From: Escherichia phage vB_EcoM_JB75
Length of the DNA stretch: 64,000 nt
Sequence record: MH355584.1
Strand: one strand, 5' to 3'
Positions 5,883-59,653 of the stretch are shown here, in pieces. Position numbers and translations under genes: made by a program. Within the stretch, counting starts at the first letter, position 1; each line of letters begins with the position of its first letter. The notes beneath the pieces are model-generated. The model did not search any database, was not told the DNA's origin, and worked only from the letters and a program-made list of their open reading frames with translations.

Positions 5883-6851
<969 letters not shown>

Positions 6852-9562: not shown

Positions 9563-9592
9563 GTTTACTTTTCCTCTTGACTGTGGTATAAT
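9563..9592 (+). promoter_or_regulatory. T4-type early promoter
   Basis: -35 GTTTAC, 18-bp spacer ending TGTGG, -10 TATAAT. Confidence 0.75.
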
Positions 9593-9619
9593 TTTTCTAT
9601 CAGTTAAGAGGAGAACAAC

Positions 9620-10081
9620 ATGACTATCAATACAGAAGTTTTTATCCGTCGAAATAAGCTTCGTCGTCACTTTGAGTCGGAGTTTCGTCAAATTAACAAT
9701 GAGATTCGTGAGGCATCAAAAGCAGCAGGAGTCTCATCGTTTCATCTAAAATATTCTCAACATCTTCTTGATCGTGCAATTCAACGGGAGATTGATGAGA
9801 CATATGTTTTTGAATTATTCCATAAAATAAAAGACCATGTTTTAGAAGTTAATGAATTCCTGAGTATGCCTCCGCGTCCTGACATTGACGAGGATTTTAT
9901 TGATGGGGTTGAATATCGTCCTGGACGTTTAGAAATCACAGATGGAAATCTTTGGCTTGGATTTACGGTTTGTAAGCCTAATGAGAAGTTCAAAAACCCG
10001 TCACTTCAATGCAGGATGGCAATTATCAACAGTCGTCGTTTACCAGGAAAGGCTTCTAAAGCAGTAATTAAAACTCAATGA
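9620..10081 (+). CDS. regB: Site-specific endoribonuclease RegB
   Basis: 153 aa, matches recalled T4 RegB sequence and position. Confidence 0.85.
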   Translation: MTINTEVFIRRNKLRRHFESEFRQINNEIREASKAAGVSSFHLKYSQHLLDRAIQREIDETYVFELFHKIKDHVLEVNEFLSMPPRPDIDEDFIDGVEYRPGRLEITDGNLWLGFTVCKPNEKFKNPSLQCRMAIINSRRLPGKASKAVIKTQ

Positions 10082-10088
10082 GGTAAGC

Positions 10089-10634
10089 ATGAGAAAAGCA
10101 CTACTCGCTGGTCTATTGGCCATTTCAATGATGGCACATAGCTCCGAGCATACTTTCAGTAATGTCCAACTCGATAACATGCGTTACGCGTATCAATTCG
10201 GGGAACAATTTTCTAAGGATGGAAAATATAAAACACACAAAAATATCCACAAGAGCGGATTAGGTCATATAATGGCTGCTATTTTATGGCAAGAAAGCTC
10301 TGGCGGAGTTAATTTAAAATCTAAACCAAAGCATCACGCTTATGGAATGTTCCAAAATTATTTGCCTACTATGCGAGCAAGAGTTAAGGAACTTGGTTAT
10401 AATATGACCGATGCTGAAATAAAAAGAATGTTGAATAAACGATCCAATTCAGCTTCCTGGGCGTACATTGAACTTTCTTATTGGTTAAATATACATAAGG
10501 GCGATATAAGAAAAGCAATATCATCTTATAATTCGGGATGGAATGTTAAAGCAGGTTCTAAATATGCTTCTGAAGTCCTAGAAAAGGCTAATTACCTTAA
10601 AAATAATAAACTTTTGGAAATAGTAAATGACTAA
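10089..10634 (+). CDS. Secreted lytic-transglycosylase-like protein
   Basis: N-terminal signal peptide; SLT-like motifs WQESSGG and AYGMFQ. Confidence 0.65.
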   Translation: MRKALLAGLLAISMMAHSSEHTFSNVQLDNMRYAYQFGEQFSKDGKYKTHKNIHKSGLGHIMAAILWQESSGGVNLKSKPKHHAYGMFQNYLPTMRARVKELGYNMTDAEIKRMLNKRSNSASWAYIELSYWLNIHKGDIRKAISSYNSGWNVKAGSKYASEVLEKANYLKNNKLLEIVND

Positions 10635-10974
10635 AATTTTGGTTTTATGTATAGGATTAATTTCATTTTCTGCTTCTGCGTCAGCAGATACATCATATAC
10701 TGAAATTAGAGAATATGTAAATCGCACTGCGGCAGATTATTGTGGGAAAAATAAAGCATGCCAAGCTGAATTTGCGCAGAAATTAATATATGCATATAAA
10801 GACGGAGAAAGAGATAAATCAAGCAGATACAAAAACGATACATTATTAAAACGATATGCTAAAAAGTGGAATACCTTAGAATGTTCAGTTGCGGAGGAGA
10901 AAGATAAAGCCGCTTGTCATTCAATGGTTGACCGTTTGGTAGATTCTTATAATCGAGGATTGAGTACTAGATGA
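10627..10974 (+). CDS. vs: Secreted small protein at the position of T4 vs
   Basis: 115 aa with signal peptide; size and position between regB and tk match T4 vs; sequence identity not verified. Confidence 0.5.
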   Translation: MTKILVLCIGLISFSASASADTSYTEIREYVNRTAADYCGKNKACQAEFAQKLIYAYKDGERDKSSRYKNDTLLKRYAKKWNTLECSVAEEKDKAACHSMVDRLVDSYNRGLSTR

Positions 10975-11438
10975 TTGTAAAATATATCAAGGGCGATATT
11001 GTCGCCCTTTTCGCTGAAGGTAAAAATATTGCGCATGGATGCAATTGTTTTCATACTATGGGTTCAGGCGTAGCGGGTCAATTAACCAAAGCTTTCCCTA
11101 AAATTTTGGAAGCTGATAAATTACAGACTGAATGGGGTGATGTAACTAAACTCGGTTCTTACTCAGTCTATGAAAAATACTTTAGGACTCATAAAGCGTA
11201 TTGCTTCAACCTTTATACTCAATTTCAACCAGGGCCAAATTTTGAGTATTCCGCTTTAATGAATTGTATGTTAGAATTAAATGAGTTTGGTGAAAATAAA
11301 CTGATTAAACCTACAATCTATATGCCTAGGATTGGTGCAGGCATAGGTAAAGGGAACTGGGATATTATTGAGGGGATTTTAGATACATATTCCTCTAAAT
11401 TAGAAATTGTGATTGTTGATTGGGAACCGTTATTATGA
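10971..11438 (+). CDS. Macro-domain protein (ADP-ribose binding / hydrolase fold)
   Basis: N-terminal GDIV...AHGCNCFHTMGSGVAGQL pattern typical of macro domains; glycine-rich loop IGAGIGKG. Confidence 0.65.
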   Translation: MIVKYIKGDIVALFAEGKNIAHGCNCFHTMGSGVAGQLTKAFPKILEADKLQTEWGDVTKLGSYSVYEKYFRTHKAYCFNLYTQFQPGPNFEYSALMNCMLELNEFGENKLIKPTIYMPRIGAGIGKGNWDIIEGILDTYSSKLEIVIVDWEPLL

Positions 11439-11647
11439 ATATACATTATCCACATCCATATGACCCAAAGAATAAGGCAGTAATTATTCGTCAATGGGAA
11501 CGCATTTGCCGTACTAAATGTCCAATTAATAGTCCGCATGATGTAGATAAAGACTACATTGGAACATTCGTTGAATATACCTTTATTGATAAGAAAGGTC
11601 GTAAACAGCATGTAGAAGAATACTGCTTAAAGGTTACATGGTTATGA
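11435..11647 (+). CDS. Hypothetical protein (70 aa)
   Basis: ATG overlaps upstream stop (ATGA). Confidence 0.45.
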   Translation: MNIHYPHPYDPKNKAVIIRQWERICRTKCPINSPHDVDKDYIGTFVEYTFIDKKGRKQHVEEYCLKVTWL

Positions 11648-11850
11648 GCCAAACTAGTATTCTTAAAAATGCCCATTGTGAAAGGTGTAAATGGCCAGTT
11701 GTTTTTGCTTTATGCAACGATGAAATGGCTTGTGATTTCGATTATTGGTGCTATTGTTCTAATAAAGGATGCATCAATCATAAAGGTGAAGGATTTTATT
11801 CGGGATTTTATCCTTATCCAGATTTCGTTAAAGAAGGTAAACCGAAATGA
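11638..11850 (+). CDS. Hypothetical Cys-rich protein
   Basis: 70 aa with 8 Cys (CxxC pairs), possible zinc binding. Confidence 0.5.
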   Translation: MVMSQTSILKNAHCERCKWPVVFALCNDEMACDFDYWCYCSNKGCINHKGEGFYSGFYPYPDFVKEGKPK

Positions 11851-12020
11851 ATAGTTTTGAGTTACAGTATGAAGTGTTACGTGAGCTTGATAATTTAATT
11901 GAACTCGCTGTCAATAAAGGTTTTGCCATTGGAATCGGTCAAAAAGATACTGGTCATTTAACTATGGAAATATTTAAGCAAAAGCGAATTATTTTAAAAC
12001 TCCTGGAAATTAATATATGA
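11847..12020 (+). CDS. Hypothetical small protein (57 aa)
   Basis: ATG overlaps upstream stop; fills an otherwise uncovered gap; not in ORF track (<60 aa). Confidence 0.35.
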   Translation: MNSFELQYEVLRELDNLIELAVNKGFAIGIGQKDTGHLTMEIFKQKRIILKLLEINI

Positions 12021-12202
12021 GTCTGAGTAAAGAACAAAAAGATAAATTGTTTGAGCTTATCCATGAACTTCTAGATGAGCATACAGAAGCAAACACCTTT
12101 TATGATGAATACGGCCCGTTATCTCCCGAACAGCAGGAAGAATTTGCTGATCGGTTTGATAAGAAAGAAAATGAATTAATAGCTTATGTGAATACGCTTT
12201 AA
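12017..12202 (+). CDS. Hypothetical acidic protein (61 aa)
   Basis: ATG overlaps upstream stop. Confidence 0.5.
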   Translation: MSLSKEQKDKLFELIHELLDEHTEANTFYDEYGPLSPEQQEEFADRFDKKENELIAYVNTL

Positions 12203-12211
12203 GAAGGTGAT

Positions 12212-12793
12212 ATGGCGAGTTTAATTTTTACTTATGCAGCAATGAATGCTGGAAAATCTGCTTCTCTTTTGACTGCCGCACATAATTATAAAGAACGTGG
12301 AATGAGTGTATTAGTTCTTAAACCCGCTATTGATACTCGCGATTCTGTCTGTGAAGTTGTTTCTCGCATTGGAATTAAACAGGAAGCGAATATTATTACA
12401 GATGATATGGATATTTTCGAGTTCTATAAATGGGCTGAAGCACAAAAAGATATTCATTGCGTATTTGTAGATGAAGCCCAGTTTTTAAAAACTGAACAGG
12501 TGCATCAATTAAGTCGAATTGTTGATACATATAATGTTCCTGTTATGGCTTATGGATTAAGGACTGATTTCGCTGGAAAATTGTTTGAAGGTTCTAAAGA
12601 ACTTTTAGCGATTGCAGATAAACTTATTGAACTAAAGGCGGTTTGTCATTGCGGTAAAAAAGCGATTATGACAGCTCGATTAACGGAAGATGGAACACCA
12701 GTTAAAGAAGGTAATCAAATCTGTATTGGTGATGAAATTTATGTTTCTTTGTGTAGAAAACATTGGAATGAATTAACTAAAAAGCTCGGTTAG
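12212..12793 (+). CDS. tk: Thymidine kinase
   Basis: 193 aa; P-loop GKSASLL; Zn-ribbon Cys pairs; matches T4 Tk. Confidence 0.95.
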   Translation: MASLIFTYAAMNAGKSASLLTAAHNYKERGMSVLVLKPAIDTRDSVCEVVSRIGIKQEANIITDDMDIFEFYKWAEAQKDIHCVFVDEAQFLKTEQVHQLSRIVDTYNVPVMAYGLRTDFAGKLFEGSKELLAIADKLIELKAVCHCGKKAIMTARLTEDGTPVKEGNQICIGDEIYVSLCRKHWNELTKKLG

Positions 12794-12802
12794 TGCAAAA
12801 GT

Positions 12803-58430: not shown

Positions 58431-59054
58431 ATGATTATTAATCTTGCAGATGTTGAACAGTTATCTATAAAAGCTGAAAGCGTTGATTTTCAACATGATA
58501 TGTATAAAAAGGTCTGTGAAAAATTTACTGACTTTGAACAATCAGTTCTTTGGCAATGTATGGAAGCCAAAAAGAATGAAGCTCTTCATCGGCAGTTGAA
58601 TAAAATCATTAAAAAGCATTTAACTGAATCACCTTATCAGTTATATCGTGGTATATCAAAATCGACAAAAGAACTCATTAAAGATTTACAAGTTGGAGAA
58701 GTGTTTTCAACGAATAGGGTAGATTCATTTACTACTAGTTTGCACACAGCATGTGGTTTTTCTTATGTTGAGTATTTCACTGAAATAATATTTCGCTTAA
58801 AAACTGATAAAGCTTTTAATTATTCTGACCATATCAGCGATATTATACTTTCTTCTCCTAATACTGAGTTTAAGTACACGTATGAAGATACTGATGGGCT
58901 AGATTCAGAGCGTACTGATAACTTAATGATGATTGTGCGTGAACAAGAATGGATGATTCCAATTGGAAAGTATAGAATAACTTCTATTTCAAAAGAAAAA
59001 TTACACGATTCATTTGGAACATTTAAAGTTTATGATATTGAGGTAGTTGAATGA
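58431..59054 (+). CDS. modB: ADP-ribosyltransferase, ModB-like
   Basis: 207 aa; ART fold motifs (YRG, S-T-x, catalytic EQEWMIP); size matches T4 ModB. Confidence 0.75.
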   Translation: MIINLADVEQLSIKAESVDFQHDMYKKVCEKFTDFEQSVLWQCMEAKKNEALHRQLNKIIKKHLTESPYQLYRGISKSTKELIKDLQVGEVFSTNRVDSFTTSLHTACGFSYVEYFTEIIFRLKTDKAFNYSDHISDIILSSPNTEFKYTYEDTDGLDSERTDNLMMIVREQEWMIPIGKYRITSISKEKLHDSFGTFKVYDIEVVE

Positions 59055-59653
59055 AATACTCAGTAATGCAACTAAAAGATTTTAAAATAAAATCAATGGA
59101 TGCATCGGTGCGTGCTTCTATTCGTGAAGAATTACTTTCTGAAGGGTTTAATTTATCTGAAATTGAACTTTTAATTCATTGTATTACTAATAAACCAGAT
59201 GACCATACTTGGTTAAATGAAATAATCAAATCTCGTTTGGAACCAAACGATAAACCTCTTTGGAGAGGTGTTCCAGCTGAGACTAAGCAAGTATTAAATC
59301 AAGGAATTGATATTATTACATTTGATAAAGTCGTATCAGCTTCATATGATAAAAATATAGCTCTACATTTTGCTTCCGGTTTAGAGTATAACACACAAGT
59401 TATTTTTGAATTCAAAGCTCCTATGGTATTCAATTTCCAGGAGTATGCTATAAAAGCTCTACGTTGTAAAGAATACAATCCAAACTTTAAGTTTCCGGAT
59501 AGCCATCGTTATCGTAATATGGAATTAGTTTCAGATGAACAAGAAGTAATGATACCAGCTGGAAGTGTATTTAGAATTGCAGATAGATATGAGTACAAAA
59601 AGTATTCAACATACACTATCTATACTCTTGATTTTGAAGGATTTAATCTATAA
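59051..59653 (+). CDS. modA: ADP-ribosyltransferase, ModA-like
   Basis: 200 aa; paralog of previous (WRG, S-x-S, EQEVMIP). Confidence 0.75.
   Translation: MKYSVMQLKDFKIKSMDASVRASIREELLSEGFNLSEIELLIHCITNKPDDHTWLNEIIKSRLEPNDKPLWRGVPAETKQVLNQGIDIITFDKVVSASYDKNIALHFASGLEYNTQVIFEFKAPMVFNFQEYAIKALRCKEYNPNFKFPDSHRYRNMELVSDEQEVMIPAGSVFRIADRYEYKKYSTYTIYTLDFEGFNL

What the first reader, a model, noticed from the sequence alone, without database searches (positions are those of the whole stretch)
10089..11438. Secreted lytic-transglycosylase-like protein and a macro-domain protein between regB and tk
ORF 10089 has a signal peptide plus SLT-like motifs (WQESSGG, AYGMFQ), suggesting a periplasmic peptidoglycan-cleaving enzyme distinct from lysozyme e. 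ORF 10971 has a macro-domain signature, a fold that binds or hydrolyses ADP-ribose. In a phage that encodes ADP-ribosyltransferases (modA/modB here) and infects hosts with ADP-ribosylating or NAD-based defences, a macro domain is a plausible ADP-ribose-signal eraser or anti-defence factor.
Basis: partly seen in the sequence, partly recalled or inferred. Interest (0 to 1): 0.45.

Follow-up and report, generated by a model that had tools for sequence, protein, structure and literature searches.

The report
Known T4 genes vs.1 and tk.4

Summary
The window is a T4-like phage (Tequatrovirus). ORF 10089-10634 and ORF 10971-11438 are 100% identical in protein sequence to T4 Vs.1 and Tk.4.

**Tk.4.** It is a stand-alone ALC1-like macro domain (pLDDT 95.7; nearest structures BT1257, TARG1, Poa1p, DarG). 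A 2025 preprint names it AdfM: deleting tk.4 sensitises T4 to DarTG2.

**What I add.** Tk.4 has an invariant Gln84 where DarG and TARG1 have the catalytic Lys. This matches SCO6735, which cleaves thymidine-linked ADP-ribose and needs that Gln.

Both domain assignments were published in 2006. This is already known and of low interest. One unexplained side observation remains: vs.1-vs is a conserved pair of predicted exported proteins.

The parts
9564..9592 (+). Sigma-70-type promoter-like site (TTTACT, 17-nt spacer, TATAAT, with TG before the -10) just upstream of regB. It is the likely early promoter for the regB-vs.1-vs-tk.4-tk.3 run.
   Evidence: the best-scoring site on the + strand (10 of 12). 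No +-strand terminator-like site lies between it and tk. The total number of sites in the region is no higher than in shuffles, so this is only suggestive.
9620..10081 (+). regB, the site-specific endoribonuclease. It is context only and marks the upstream boundary.
   Evidence: Pfam REGB_T4 E 5.9e-69. It is 99.3% identical to T4 RegB.
10089..10142 (+). Predicted Sec signal peptide of Vs.1 (residues 1-18, MRKALLAGLLAISMMAHS, with cleavage predicted after A-H-S).
   Evidence: The n-region is MRK, the hydrophobic core has a Kyte-Doolittle score of 2.40, and small residues sit at -3 and -1. The same architecture, with a drifting sequence, is present in 36 of 37 relatives, and 35 have K/R before the core. 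The Tk.4 family control has a median score of 1.04. AlphaFold confidence is low for residues 1-20. No dedicated signal-peptide predictor was available.
10089..10634 (+). vs.1: an exported, divergent GH23/SLT-type lytic-transglycosylase-like protein (181 aa).
10627..10974 (+). vs ('valyl-tRNA synthetase modifier', 115 aa). It lies between the two ORFs of the finding and overlaps both. It also has a signal-peptide-like N-terminus.
   Evidence: 100% identical to T4 Vs. phrog_1256 E 1.7e-39. Gene overlaps are shown. The N-terminus is MTKILVLCIGLISFSASASA|DT, and four Cys in the mature part are kept in distant homologues that again follow vs.1.
10971..11438 (+). tk.4 (= adfM): a stand-alone ALC1-like macro domain (155 aa) and anti-DarTG2 factor.
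   Evidence: 100% identical to T4 Tk.4. Pfam Macro 27.7 bits against a cutoff of 22. AF2 pLDDT 95.7. Foldseek probability 1.0 to TARG1, Poa1p, BT1257 and DarG. Profile against PDB sequences: BT1257 9e-18. Knock-out phenotype.

Best explanation
This is the regB-to-tk stretch of a T4-type phage. It is a tightly packed run of genes, probably transcribed early, in which neighbouring reading frames overlap or sit a few bases apart.

The first gene, vs.1, encodes a small protein that is most likely exported by the Sec pathway and released into the periplasm after signal-peptide cleavage. Its mature part has the goose-lysozyme/SLT (GH23) fold with a single conserved catalytic glutamate (E69). It most likely cuts the glycan strands of host murein as a lytic transglycosylase. 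The gene is dispensable, so its role is auxiliary remodelling or weakening of the wall rather than being the main lysis enzyme. Fold and motifs are shown here; export, activity and role are inferred.

The second gene, tk.4, encodes a cytoplasmic stand-alone macro domain, published as AdfM. It protects phage DNA from the host DarTG2 toxin-antitoxin defence, most likely by hydrolysing ADP-ribose from thymidines that DarT2 has modified on single-stranded DNA. It does this with the glutamine-type active site known from Streptomyces SCO6735, not the lysine-type site of DarG and TARG1. The fold, residues and knock-out phenotype are shown; the chemistry is inferred for the T4 protein.

The two proteins are neighbours, not partners.
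For: **Identity.** The proteins are 100% identical to T4 Vs.1, Vs and Tk.4, the gene order matches NC_000866, and 477 phage records cover at least 80% of the region.

**Tk.4.** The Macro match is above cutoff, and 61 of 65 relatives hit it. The AF2 model has pLDDT 95.7. Foldseek finds TARG1, Poa1p, BT1257 and DarG at probability 1.0 and TM about 0.7-0.8. In the profile alignment the invariant Q84 falls on TARG1 K84 and on the Gln of BT1257.

**Literature.** SCO6735 has Gln85 at that position; Q85A and Q85E are dead, and the enzyme removes thymidine-linked ADP-ribose and rescues cells from DarT (PMC9411070). DarG K80 is equivalent to TARG1 K84 (PMC5179494). tk.4 was the single significant hit of a T4 transposon screen on a DarTG2 host, and a clean knock-out is sensitised. 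T4 lacking adfN stays DarTG2-resistant (PMC11825919). A phiKZ macrodomain, also named AdfM, removes DarT2-made ADP-ribose in vitro (PMC13309987).

**Dispensability.** In the same screen vs.1 had 46 of 52 TA sites disrupted and tk.4 had 45 of 46; both were called non-essential.
Against: **Vs.1.** The sequence evidence is thin. The Pfam score is only 4 bits above cutoff, no PDB sequence matches significantly even with a family profile (best E 0.45), and Foldseek E-values are weak (0.007). No enzyme assay or localisation experiment for Vs.1 turned up in the literature I could search. It is established T4 knowledge that mutants lacking lysozyme e fail to lyse, so Vs.1 cannot be a sufficient lysis enzyme.

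**Tk.4.** The anti-DarTG2 result comes from a preprint. No biochemistry on the T4 protein was found. It lacks both TARG1 catalytic residues (K84 becomes Q, D125 becomes G). Catalytically dead SCO6735 also inhibits DarT by binding, so hydrolysis and sequestration are not separated for Tk.4.
Confidence: 0.8

Rival explanations
1. Tk.4 erases the phage's own ADP-ribosylation marks, meaning the Alt/ModA/ModB modification of RNA polymerase alpha, S1, EF-Tu and similar targets, or ModB RNAylation. On this view it tunes host takeover rather than countering a defence.
For: modA and modB are in the same window. Macro domains are general ADP-ribose erasers (PMC9503650). An arginine-specific macrodomain, MavL, is listed among the search results (PMC10951314).
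Against: Alt, ModA and ModB make N-glycosidic arginine linkages (established knowledge). The ALC1-like relatives of Tk.4 act on ester-linked or nucleic-acid-linked ADP-ribose. Tk.4 groups with BT1257, TARG1, DarG and SCO6735. tk.4 insertions show no fitness cost on hosts without DarTG2 (log2FC -0.07 in LB against M9 and -0.19 in the reference against the rnlA-deletion library), yet tk.4 is the single significant hit with DarTG2.
Confidence: 0.07
2. Tk.4 is a small-molecule enzyme, as the old annotation 'A1pp phosphatase' implies. It would dephosphorylate ADP-ribose-1''-phosphate or deacetylate O-acetyl-ADP-ribose, and the DNA-repair effect would be secondary.
For: RefSeq calls it a phosphatase with an A1pp motif, and PHROG 335 is labelled phosphatase. 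Yeast Poa1p, a true ADP-ribose-1''-phosphatase, is among the closest structures.
Against: The annotation derives from a 2006-era domain name. The only phenotype found is DarTG2-specific. The closest biochemically characterised Gln-type relative, SCO6735, cleaves thymidine-linked ADP-ribose on DNA efficiently.
Confidence: 0.08
3. Tk.4 neutralises DarT2 mainly by binding and blocking the toxin, not by removing ADP-ribose from DNA.
For: Catalytically dead SCO6735 Q85A inhibits DarT in vitro more strongly than dead DarG or TARG1. No catalytic test of the T4 protein was found.
Against: The active-site residues N25, Q84 and the G122-x-G124 loop are invariant across 65 diverse relatives from phages of many hosts. 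That fits conserved chemistry better than recognition of one toxin. The phiKZ AdfM is catalytically active on DarT2-modified DNA. The isolated TaqDarG macrodomain K80A did not inhibit DarT.
Confidence: 0.1
4. Vs.1 is not an active enzyme. It would be a peptidoglycan-binding or regulatory periplasmic protein that acts as one half of a conserved exported Vs.1-Vs module, for example by controlling host lytic transglycosylases or the timing of lysis.
For: vs directly follows vs.1, with overlapping frames, in T4 and in relatives with only 40-53% identity. Both products have signal-peptide-like N-termini. Insertions in both genes are about 10-fold under-represented after competition compared with neighbouring genes, and both drop further in minimal medium (vs log2FC -2.19, q below 0.05; vs.1 log2FC -0.87, p 0.0055, q 0.155). 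The antiholin rI and lysozyme e lie nearby in distant relatives.
Against: The catalytic Glu and all three lytic transglycosylase motifs are invariant, which argues for retained activity. The shared fitness pattern can be explained by polarity of vs.1 insertions on the overlapping downstream vs. Vs is classically described as binding cytoplasmic valyl-tRNA synthetase.
Confidence: 0.15

Closest known systems
Phage T4 Vs.1 (NP_049725) and Tk.4/AdfM (NP_049723)
   Same: Identical protein sequences, and the same gene order regB-vs.1-vs-tk.4-tk.3.
   Different: Nothing within these genes differs. The window departs from T4 only downstream, in the tk.3-tk interval.
Streptomyces coelicolor SCO6735 (PDB 5E3B) and Bacteroides BT1257 (PDB 2FG1/2AFC): stand-alone ALC1-like macrodomains with Gln at the catalytic position
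   Same: All are single-domain macro proteins with a Gln where DarG and TARG1 have Lys. BT1257 is the best PDB sequence match (9e-18), and SCO6735 matches at 1.9e-13. SCO6735 cleaves thymidine-linked ADP-ribose and counteracts DarT.
   Different: Identity to BT1257 is only about 25%. These are cellular, not viral, proteins. I could not check whether the long lysine-rich mobile loop described for SCO6735 has an equivalent in Tk.4.
DarG antitoxin of DarTG2 (PDB 5M31/5M3E/5M3I, 7OMU) and human TARG1 (4J5R)
   Same: The same ALC1-like macro fold (probability 1.0, TM 0.7-0.8). The functional outcome is also the same, namely protection from DarT2.
   Different: Tk.4 has Q84 in place of the catalytic Lys (K80 or K84) and G in place of TARG1 D125. 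It has no C-terminal DarT-binding domain. It scores 30.3 bits against a 250-bit cutoff for the NCBIfam DarG equivalog, and there is no adjacent darT.
phiKZ gp104 AdfM, the chimallivirus macrodomain
   Same: It is a phage-encoded orphan macrodomain that counters DarTG2, and its in-vitro removal of DarT2-made ADP-ribose has been shown.
   Different: It is imported into the phage nucleus. Its sequence relationship to Tk.4 was not tested here.
Family-1 lytic transglycosylases of GH23: E. coli Slt70, MltC and MltE; P. aeruginosa Slt, MltF and MltD; and the specialised small enzyme EtgA of type III secretion
   Different: Identity is only 15-20%, and no significant sequence match to any solved enzyme was found. 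Vs.1 has no lipobox, no LysM domain and no superhelical accessory domain. It is phage-encoded and probably made early, and it has no known partner machine.
Virion-borne phage lytic transglycosylases such as T7 gp16 and the phi6 P5 lysin, and phage endolysins
   Same: Related GH23-like folds appear lower in the hit lists.
   Different: Vs.1 carries its own Sec signal peptide and is not known as a virion protein or as the lysis enzyme. T4 uses gp5 for entry and lysozyme e for lysis; e is at window 6357-6851.

Membership tests
Macro domain (Pfam PF01661) | Profile match above the curated cutoff, seen across the family | tested here: met
   27.7 bits against a cutoff of 22, covering 112 of 118 profile positions. 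61 of 65 relatives match.
Macro domain (Pfam PF01661) | Three-layer alpha/beta/alpha fold with a mixed six-stranded sheet | tested here: met
   The AF2 model has pLDDT 95.7 and pTM 0.91, with alternating strands and helices. 139 PDB matches have E below 0.001, and the top 17 are natural macro domains; the next few include designed hydrolases deposited under the OSH55 name.
Macro domain (Pfam PF01661) | ADP-ribose-binding loops (Asn after strand 2, Gly-rich loop, P-x-I-G-x-G loop) | tested here: met
   N25, G33, A35, P119, I121, G122 and G124 are invariant in 65 sequences. Ligand binding itself was not tested.
DarG antitoxin (NCBIfam NF048014 equivalog) | Full-length match above the curated cutoff, with the macro domain plus the C-terminal DarT-binding domain | tested here: not met
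   30.3 bits against a 250-bit cutoff. Only profile positions 2-146 of 338 are matched, and the protein is only 155 aa long.
DarG antitoxin (NCBIfam NF048014 equivalog) | Catalytic lysine (TaqDarG K80, equivalent to TARG1 K84) | tested here: not met
   The invariant Q84 aligns with TARG1 K84. The equivalence of K80 and K84 comes from PMC5179494.
DarG antitoxin (NCBIfam NF048014 equivalog) | Encoded next to a darT toxin gene | tested here: not met
   The neighbours are vs and tk.3.
Gln-type ALC1-like macrodomains (SCO6735/BT1257 type) | Glutamine at the position of the DarG/TARG1 catalytic lysine; stand-alone domain | tested here: met
   Q84 is invariant. It aligns with the Gln of BT1257, which the structure-based alignment in PMC9411070 places with SCO6735 Gln85.
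Gln-type ALC1-like macrodomains (SCO6735/BT1257 type) | Hydrolysis of thymidine-linked ADP-ribose on single-stranded DNA | not testable with these tools
   This is inferred from the knock-out phenotype on DarTG2 hosts and from SCO6735 and phiKZ AdfM biochemistry.
SLT / GH23 family-1 lytic transglycosylase (Pfam PF01464) | Profile match above the curated cutoff | tested here: met
   25.1 bits against a cutoff of 21.3, so it passes narrowly. 34 of 37 relatives match, with a best E of 1.3e-7.
SLT / GH23 family-1 lytic transglycosylase (Pfam PF01464) | Lysozyme-like, mostly helical fold | tested here: met
SLT / GH23 family-1 lytic transglycosylase (Pfam PF01464) | Catalytic Glu in an E-S motif, plus the G-L-M-Q-like and A-Y-N-x-G-like motifs | tested here: met
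   E69 is invariant and S70 nearly so. G86, F88 and Q89 are invariant, as are Y147, N148 and G150, in 37 sequences down to 41% identity. There is no invariant Asp. The motif definitions are from established knowledge of family-1 lytic transglycosylases.
SLT / GH23 family-1 lytic transglycosylase (Pfam PF01464) | Cleavage of the MurNAc-GlcNAc bond with formation of 1,6-anhydro-MurNAc | not testable with these tools
   No assay for Vs.1 was found in the searchable literature.
Sec-exported soluble periplasmic protein | N-terminal positive n-region, a hydrophobic h-region of 10-15 residues, small residues at -3 and -1, and no lipobox Cys | tested here: met
   The N-terminus reads MRK / ALLAGLLAISMMA / AHS|S. 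The same architecture is found in 36 of 37 relatives, and the sequence varies while hydrophobicity is kept. This was judged by hydropathy and by eye only, not with a trained predictor. Export was not shown experimentally.

The most novel reading that the evidence does not exclude
vs.1 and the overlapping downstream gene vs form a conserved two-gene module whose products are both exported. One would be a periplasmic lytic transglycosylase and the other a small disulfide-bonded periplasmic protein. If so, the protein known for fifty years as the 'valyl-tRNA synthetase modifier' would have its real site of action in the cell envelope. The medium-dependent fitness defect of vs mutants would then reflect wall remodelling or lysis control in slow-growing cells rather than translation.
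Probability: 0.15. Interest if true: 0.55.

Novelty: already known. Interest (0 to 1): 0.15.

Why it matters
As a discovery it matters little.

Two points are still useful. First, Tk.4/AdfM has been described as DarG-like, but it carries the glutamine-type active site of SCO6735 and BT1257. Mutational and mechanistic work should therefore target Q84 and N25 rather than a lysine. It also suggests that the phage protein descends from stand-alone cellular macrodomains and not from a DarG antitoxin.

Second, Vs.1 remains one of the conserved T4-family genes with a confident enzymatic prediction and no known role. Its conserved pairing with vs, which also looks exported, gives a concrete and cheap experiment.

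Tried and rejected
- **Sequence searches of Vs.1 against solved structures.** Both the single sequence and the 37-sequence profile found nothing significant. Only the Pfam model and structure comparison detect the family.
- **NCBIfam.** It has no model for Vs.1 or Vs. It gives only a far sub-threshold DarG match for Tk.4, so I rejected filing Tk.4 as a DarG.
- **Vs as a paralogue of the antiholin RI.** I considered this because both are small exported proteins with a C-x5-C motif. BLASTP finds nothing (E 0.49), and Vs has no PDB relative. I dropped the idea.
- **MotA-box middle promoter search.** It gave 20 matches against 15.4 expected, and none lies on the + strand near these genes, so it was uninformative.
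- **Literature searches for work on vs.1.** They returned only the 2006 comparative-genomics paper. The T4 genome review (PMC150520) is not held.
- **Active-site geometry.** I could not obtain residue-level alignments to SCO6735 or DarG, or model coordinates. The Q84 equivalence therefore rests on the TARG1 and BT1257 alignments plus the published structure-based alignment.
- **Wasted search.** One tblastn with T4 lysozyme against the phage collection was unnecessary, because the ORF list already showed e in the window.
Full report
**What is there**

The window is a T4-type phage read in the opposite orientation to the T4 reference. A megablast of 9600-12800 finds 738 phage records, nearly all Escherichia, Shigella or Yersinia T-even phages, and the best are 99.2% identical.

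Their products are 100% identical to T4 Vs.1 and Tk.4 (T4 annotation). regB (9620-10081) and tk (12212-12793) flank the region as claimed.

It sits between the two ORFs and overlaps both of them. The start of vs precedes the vs.1 stop by a few bases, and the vs/tk.4 and tk.4/tk.3 junctions are ATGA overlaps.

A good sigma-70-type site with an extended -10 lies at 9564-9592, just before regB. No +-strand terminator-like site follows before tk. The genes are therefore probably co-transcribed early, but the scan is no richer in sites than shuffled sequence, so this is only suggestive.

modB and modA are at 58431-59653, and lysozyme e is at 6357-6851.

**Vs.1**

- **Signal peptide.** The N-terminus MRK-ALLAGLLAISMMA-AHS|S has the charge, hydrophobic core and small -3/-1 residues of a Sec signal peptide, and it has no lipobox cysteine.
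  - In 37 relatives down to 41% identity this segment changes in sequence but keeps its hydrophobicity. The median 10-residue Kyte-Doolittle maximum is 2.42, against 1.04 in the Tk.4 family used as a control.
  - 35 of the 37 have a K or R before the core. The one outlier looks like a truncated gene call.
- **Sequence evidence for the domain.** The mature part matches Pfam SLT just above the curated cutoff (25.1 against 21.3 bits), and 34 of 37 relatives match too.
- **Conserved motifs.** The invariant columns are exactly those expected of a family-1 lytic transglycosylase: E69 followed by S70, G86-x-F88-Q89, and Y147-N148-x-G150, plus Y159.
  - E69 and E128 are the only invariant acidic residues, and no Asp is invariant. 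This fits a single-glutamate transglycosylase better than a goose-type lysozyme.
- **Divergence.** Sequence searches against solved structures find nothing significant, even with the family profile, so the protein is very divergent.
- **Structural evidence.** The AlphaFold model is confident (pLDDT 89.3, low only in the signal peptide and at the C-terminal tip).
  - Foldseek is weaker (E 0.007) but lists the same family.

The prediction of an exported SLT-like enzyme therefore stands.

What it does for the phage is not known. The only literature I could find is the 2006 comparative paper. That paper already reported the marginal SLT match in all six T4-like genomes examined and cited an earlier PSI-BLAST match to lysozyme (PMC1524935).

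In the HIDEN-SEQ transposon screen, vs.1 is non-essential, with 46 of 52 TA sites disrupted.

**Tk.4**

- **Sequence evidence.** The protein matches Pfam Macro above cutoff (27.7 against 22 bits), and 61 of 65 relatives do too.
- **Structural evidence.** The model is excellent (pLDDT 95.7, pTM 0.91).
- **Closest relatives by structure.** The nearest structures are all ALC1-like macrodomains: TARG1, yeast Poa1p, Bacteroides BT1257 and DarG from Thermus, Mycobacterium and Thermosipho. All have probability 1.0 and TM about 0.7-0.8.
- **Closest relatives by profile-to-sequence search.** The order is BT1257 (9e-18), TARG1 (4e-15), Poa1p (1e-14), Mtb DarG (1.7e-13) and SCO6735 (1.9e-13).

The old annotation 'phosphatase, A1pp motif' is simply the former name of the macro domain.

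- In the HIDEN-SEQ preprint, tk.4 was the single significant hit when a T4 transposon library was grown on a DarTG2 host.
- A clean deletion was sensitised, and the gene was renamed adfM.
- This fits the earlier finding that T4 lacking its NADAR factor AdfN is still DarTG2-resistant.
- A 2026 paper shows in vitro that a phiKZ macrodomain, also called AdfM, removes DarT2-made ADP-ribose.

**What I add on Tk.4**

The preprint describes Tk.4 as DarG-like, but a defining catalytic feature of DarG is absent.
- Across 65 relatives the motif N-L-Y-T-Q is conserved, with Y82 and Q84 invariant.
- In the profile alignment Q84 falls on TARG1 K84 ('LITK') and on a Gln of BT1257 ('MIGQ'). TARG1 D125 corresponds to a Gly.
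- DarG K80 is the equivalent of TARG1 K84 and is essential for activity (PMC5179494).
- SCO6735 has Gln85 at this position. Q85A and Q85E abolish activity, the enzyme cleaves thymidine-linked ADP-ribose efficiently, and it rescues cells from DarT. Its authors propose a water-mediated mechanism (PMC9411070).

Tk.4 therefore belongs with the glutamine-type stand-alone macrodomains. It is not a DarG: the NCBIfam DarG equivalog scores 30.3 bits against a 250-bit cutoff, and only the macro part matches.

It works like a DarG macrodomain but probably uses different chemistry. One caveat is that dead SCO6735 also blocks DarT by binding, so hydrolysis and sequestration are not yet separated for the T4 protein.

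**Are the two proteins linked?**

I found no evidence that they are. One is predicted to be periplasmic and to act on murein. The other has no export signal and acts on DNA-linked ADP-ribose. tk.4 insertions have no cost without DarTG2.

**A side observation**

The gene that does look linked to vs.1 is vs.
- In a metagenomic relative with only 40% identity (L003) and in one with 53% identity (L004), the vs.1 homologue is again followed immediately by a vs homologue (PF26829). The antiholin gene rI, and in L004 lysozyme e, lie close by.
- A second contig carrying the same 40%-identity protein (L002) has an rI homologue downstream instead and no called vs homologue.
- T4 Vs begins MTKILVLCIGLISFSASASA|DT, a textbook signal peptide. 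Its mature part has two cysteine pairs. The distant homologues keep both features.
- In the HIDEN-SEQ competition data, insertions in vs and in vs.1 have mean counts of 26.6 and 22.6 in LB. Their neighbours regB, tk.4 and vs.3 have 179-652.
- Both drop further in minimal medium: vs has log2FC -2.19 (q below 0.05), and vs.1 has log2FC -0.87 (p 0.0055, q 0.155).
- Polarity of vs.1 insertions on the overlapping vs could explain the shared pattern.

A predicted exported, disulfide-bonded protein is nevertheless an odd fit for a factor said to bind cytoplasmic valyl-tRNA synthetase. I found nothing about this in the literature I could search and no similarity between Vs and RI.

**Verdict**

Both proteins are identical to annotated T4 proteins, the domain assignments were published by 2006, and the anti-defence role of the macro domain was shown in 2025. 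Interest is low. The residual value lies in the Gln-type active site of Tk.4 and in the unexplained vs.1-vs pairing.

Noticed in passing
window 10627-10974 (vs); L003 5520-5849; L004 5552-5863: The 'valyl-tRNA synthetase modifier' Vs has a textbook signal-peptide-like N-terminus (MTKILVLCIGLISFSASASA|DT) and two Cys pairs in the mature part. Both features are kept in distant homologues. That is odd for a protein said to bind a cytoplasmic enzyme. No similarity to RI or to any solved structure was found.
   Followed up: partly
window 10089-10974; L003 5001-5849; L004 5001-5863; L002 5001-6106: vs.1 followed directly by vs is a conserved gene pair in relatives with 40-53% identity (L003, L004). 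The antiholin rI (PF24205), and in L004 lysozyme e (PF00959), lie close by. Contig L002 carries the same vs.1 protein as L003 but has an rI homologue downstream and no called vs homologue. In published transposon data, insertions in both genes are about 10-fold under-represented compared with neighbouring genes and fall further in minimal medium. Polarity of vs.1 insertions on vs has not been excluded.
   Followed up: partly
window 11638-12202: The interval between tk.3 and tk differs from T4. Two ORFs absent from T4 are present: 11638-11850 (70 aa, Cys/His-rich, zinc-finger-like) and 11847-12020 (57 aa). The tk.2-like ORF (12017-12202) is only 54% identical in protein sequence (69% in DNA), and tk.1 is missing. 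The flanks are 98-100% identical to T4.
   Followed up: partly
homologues listed (P0008, P0038): Some public records name Vs.1 homologues 'endoribonuclease' or 'site-specific RNA endonuclease'. This is evidently an annotation slip carried over from the neighbouring regB gene.
   Followed up: no
window 10989-11009 (- strand): A strong terminator-like hairpin (8 pairs, 5 of them G-C, followed by a T-rich tail) lies on the minus strand inside the start of tk.4. It is antisense to the direction of all the genes here, and its meaning is unknown.
   Followed up: no
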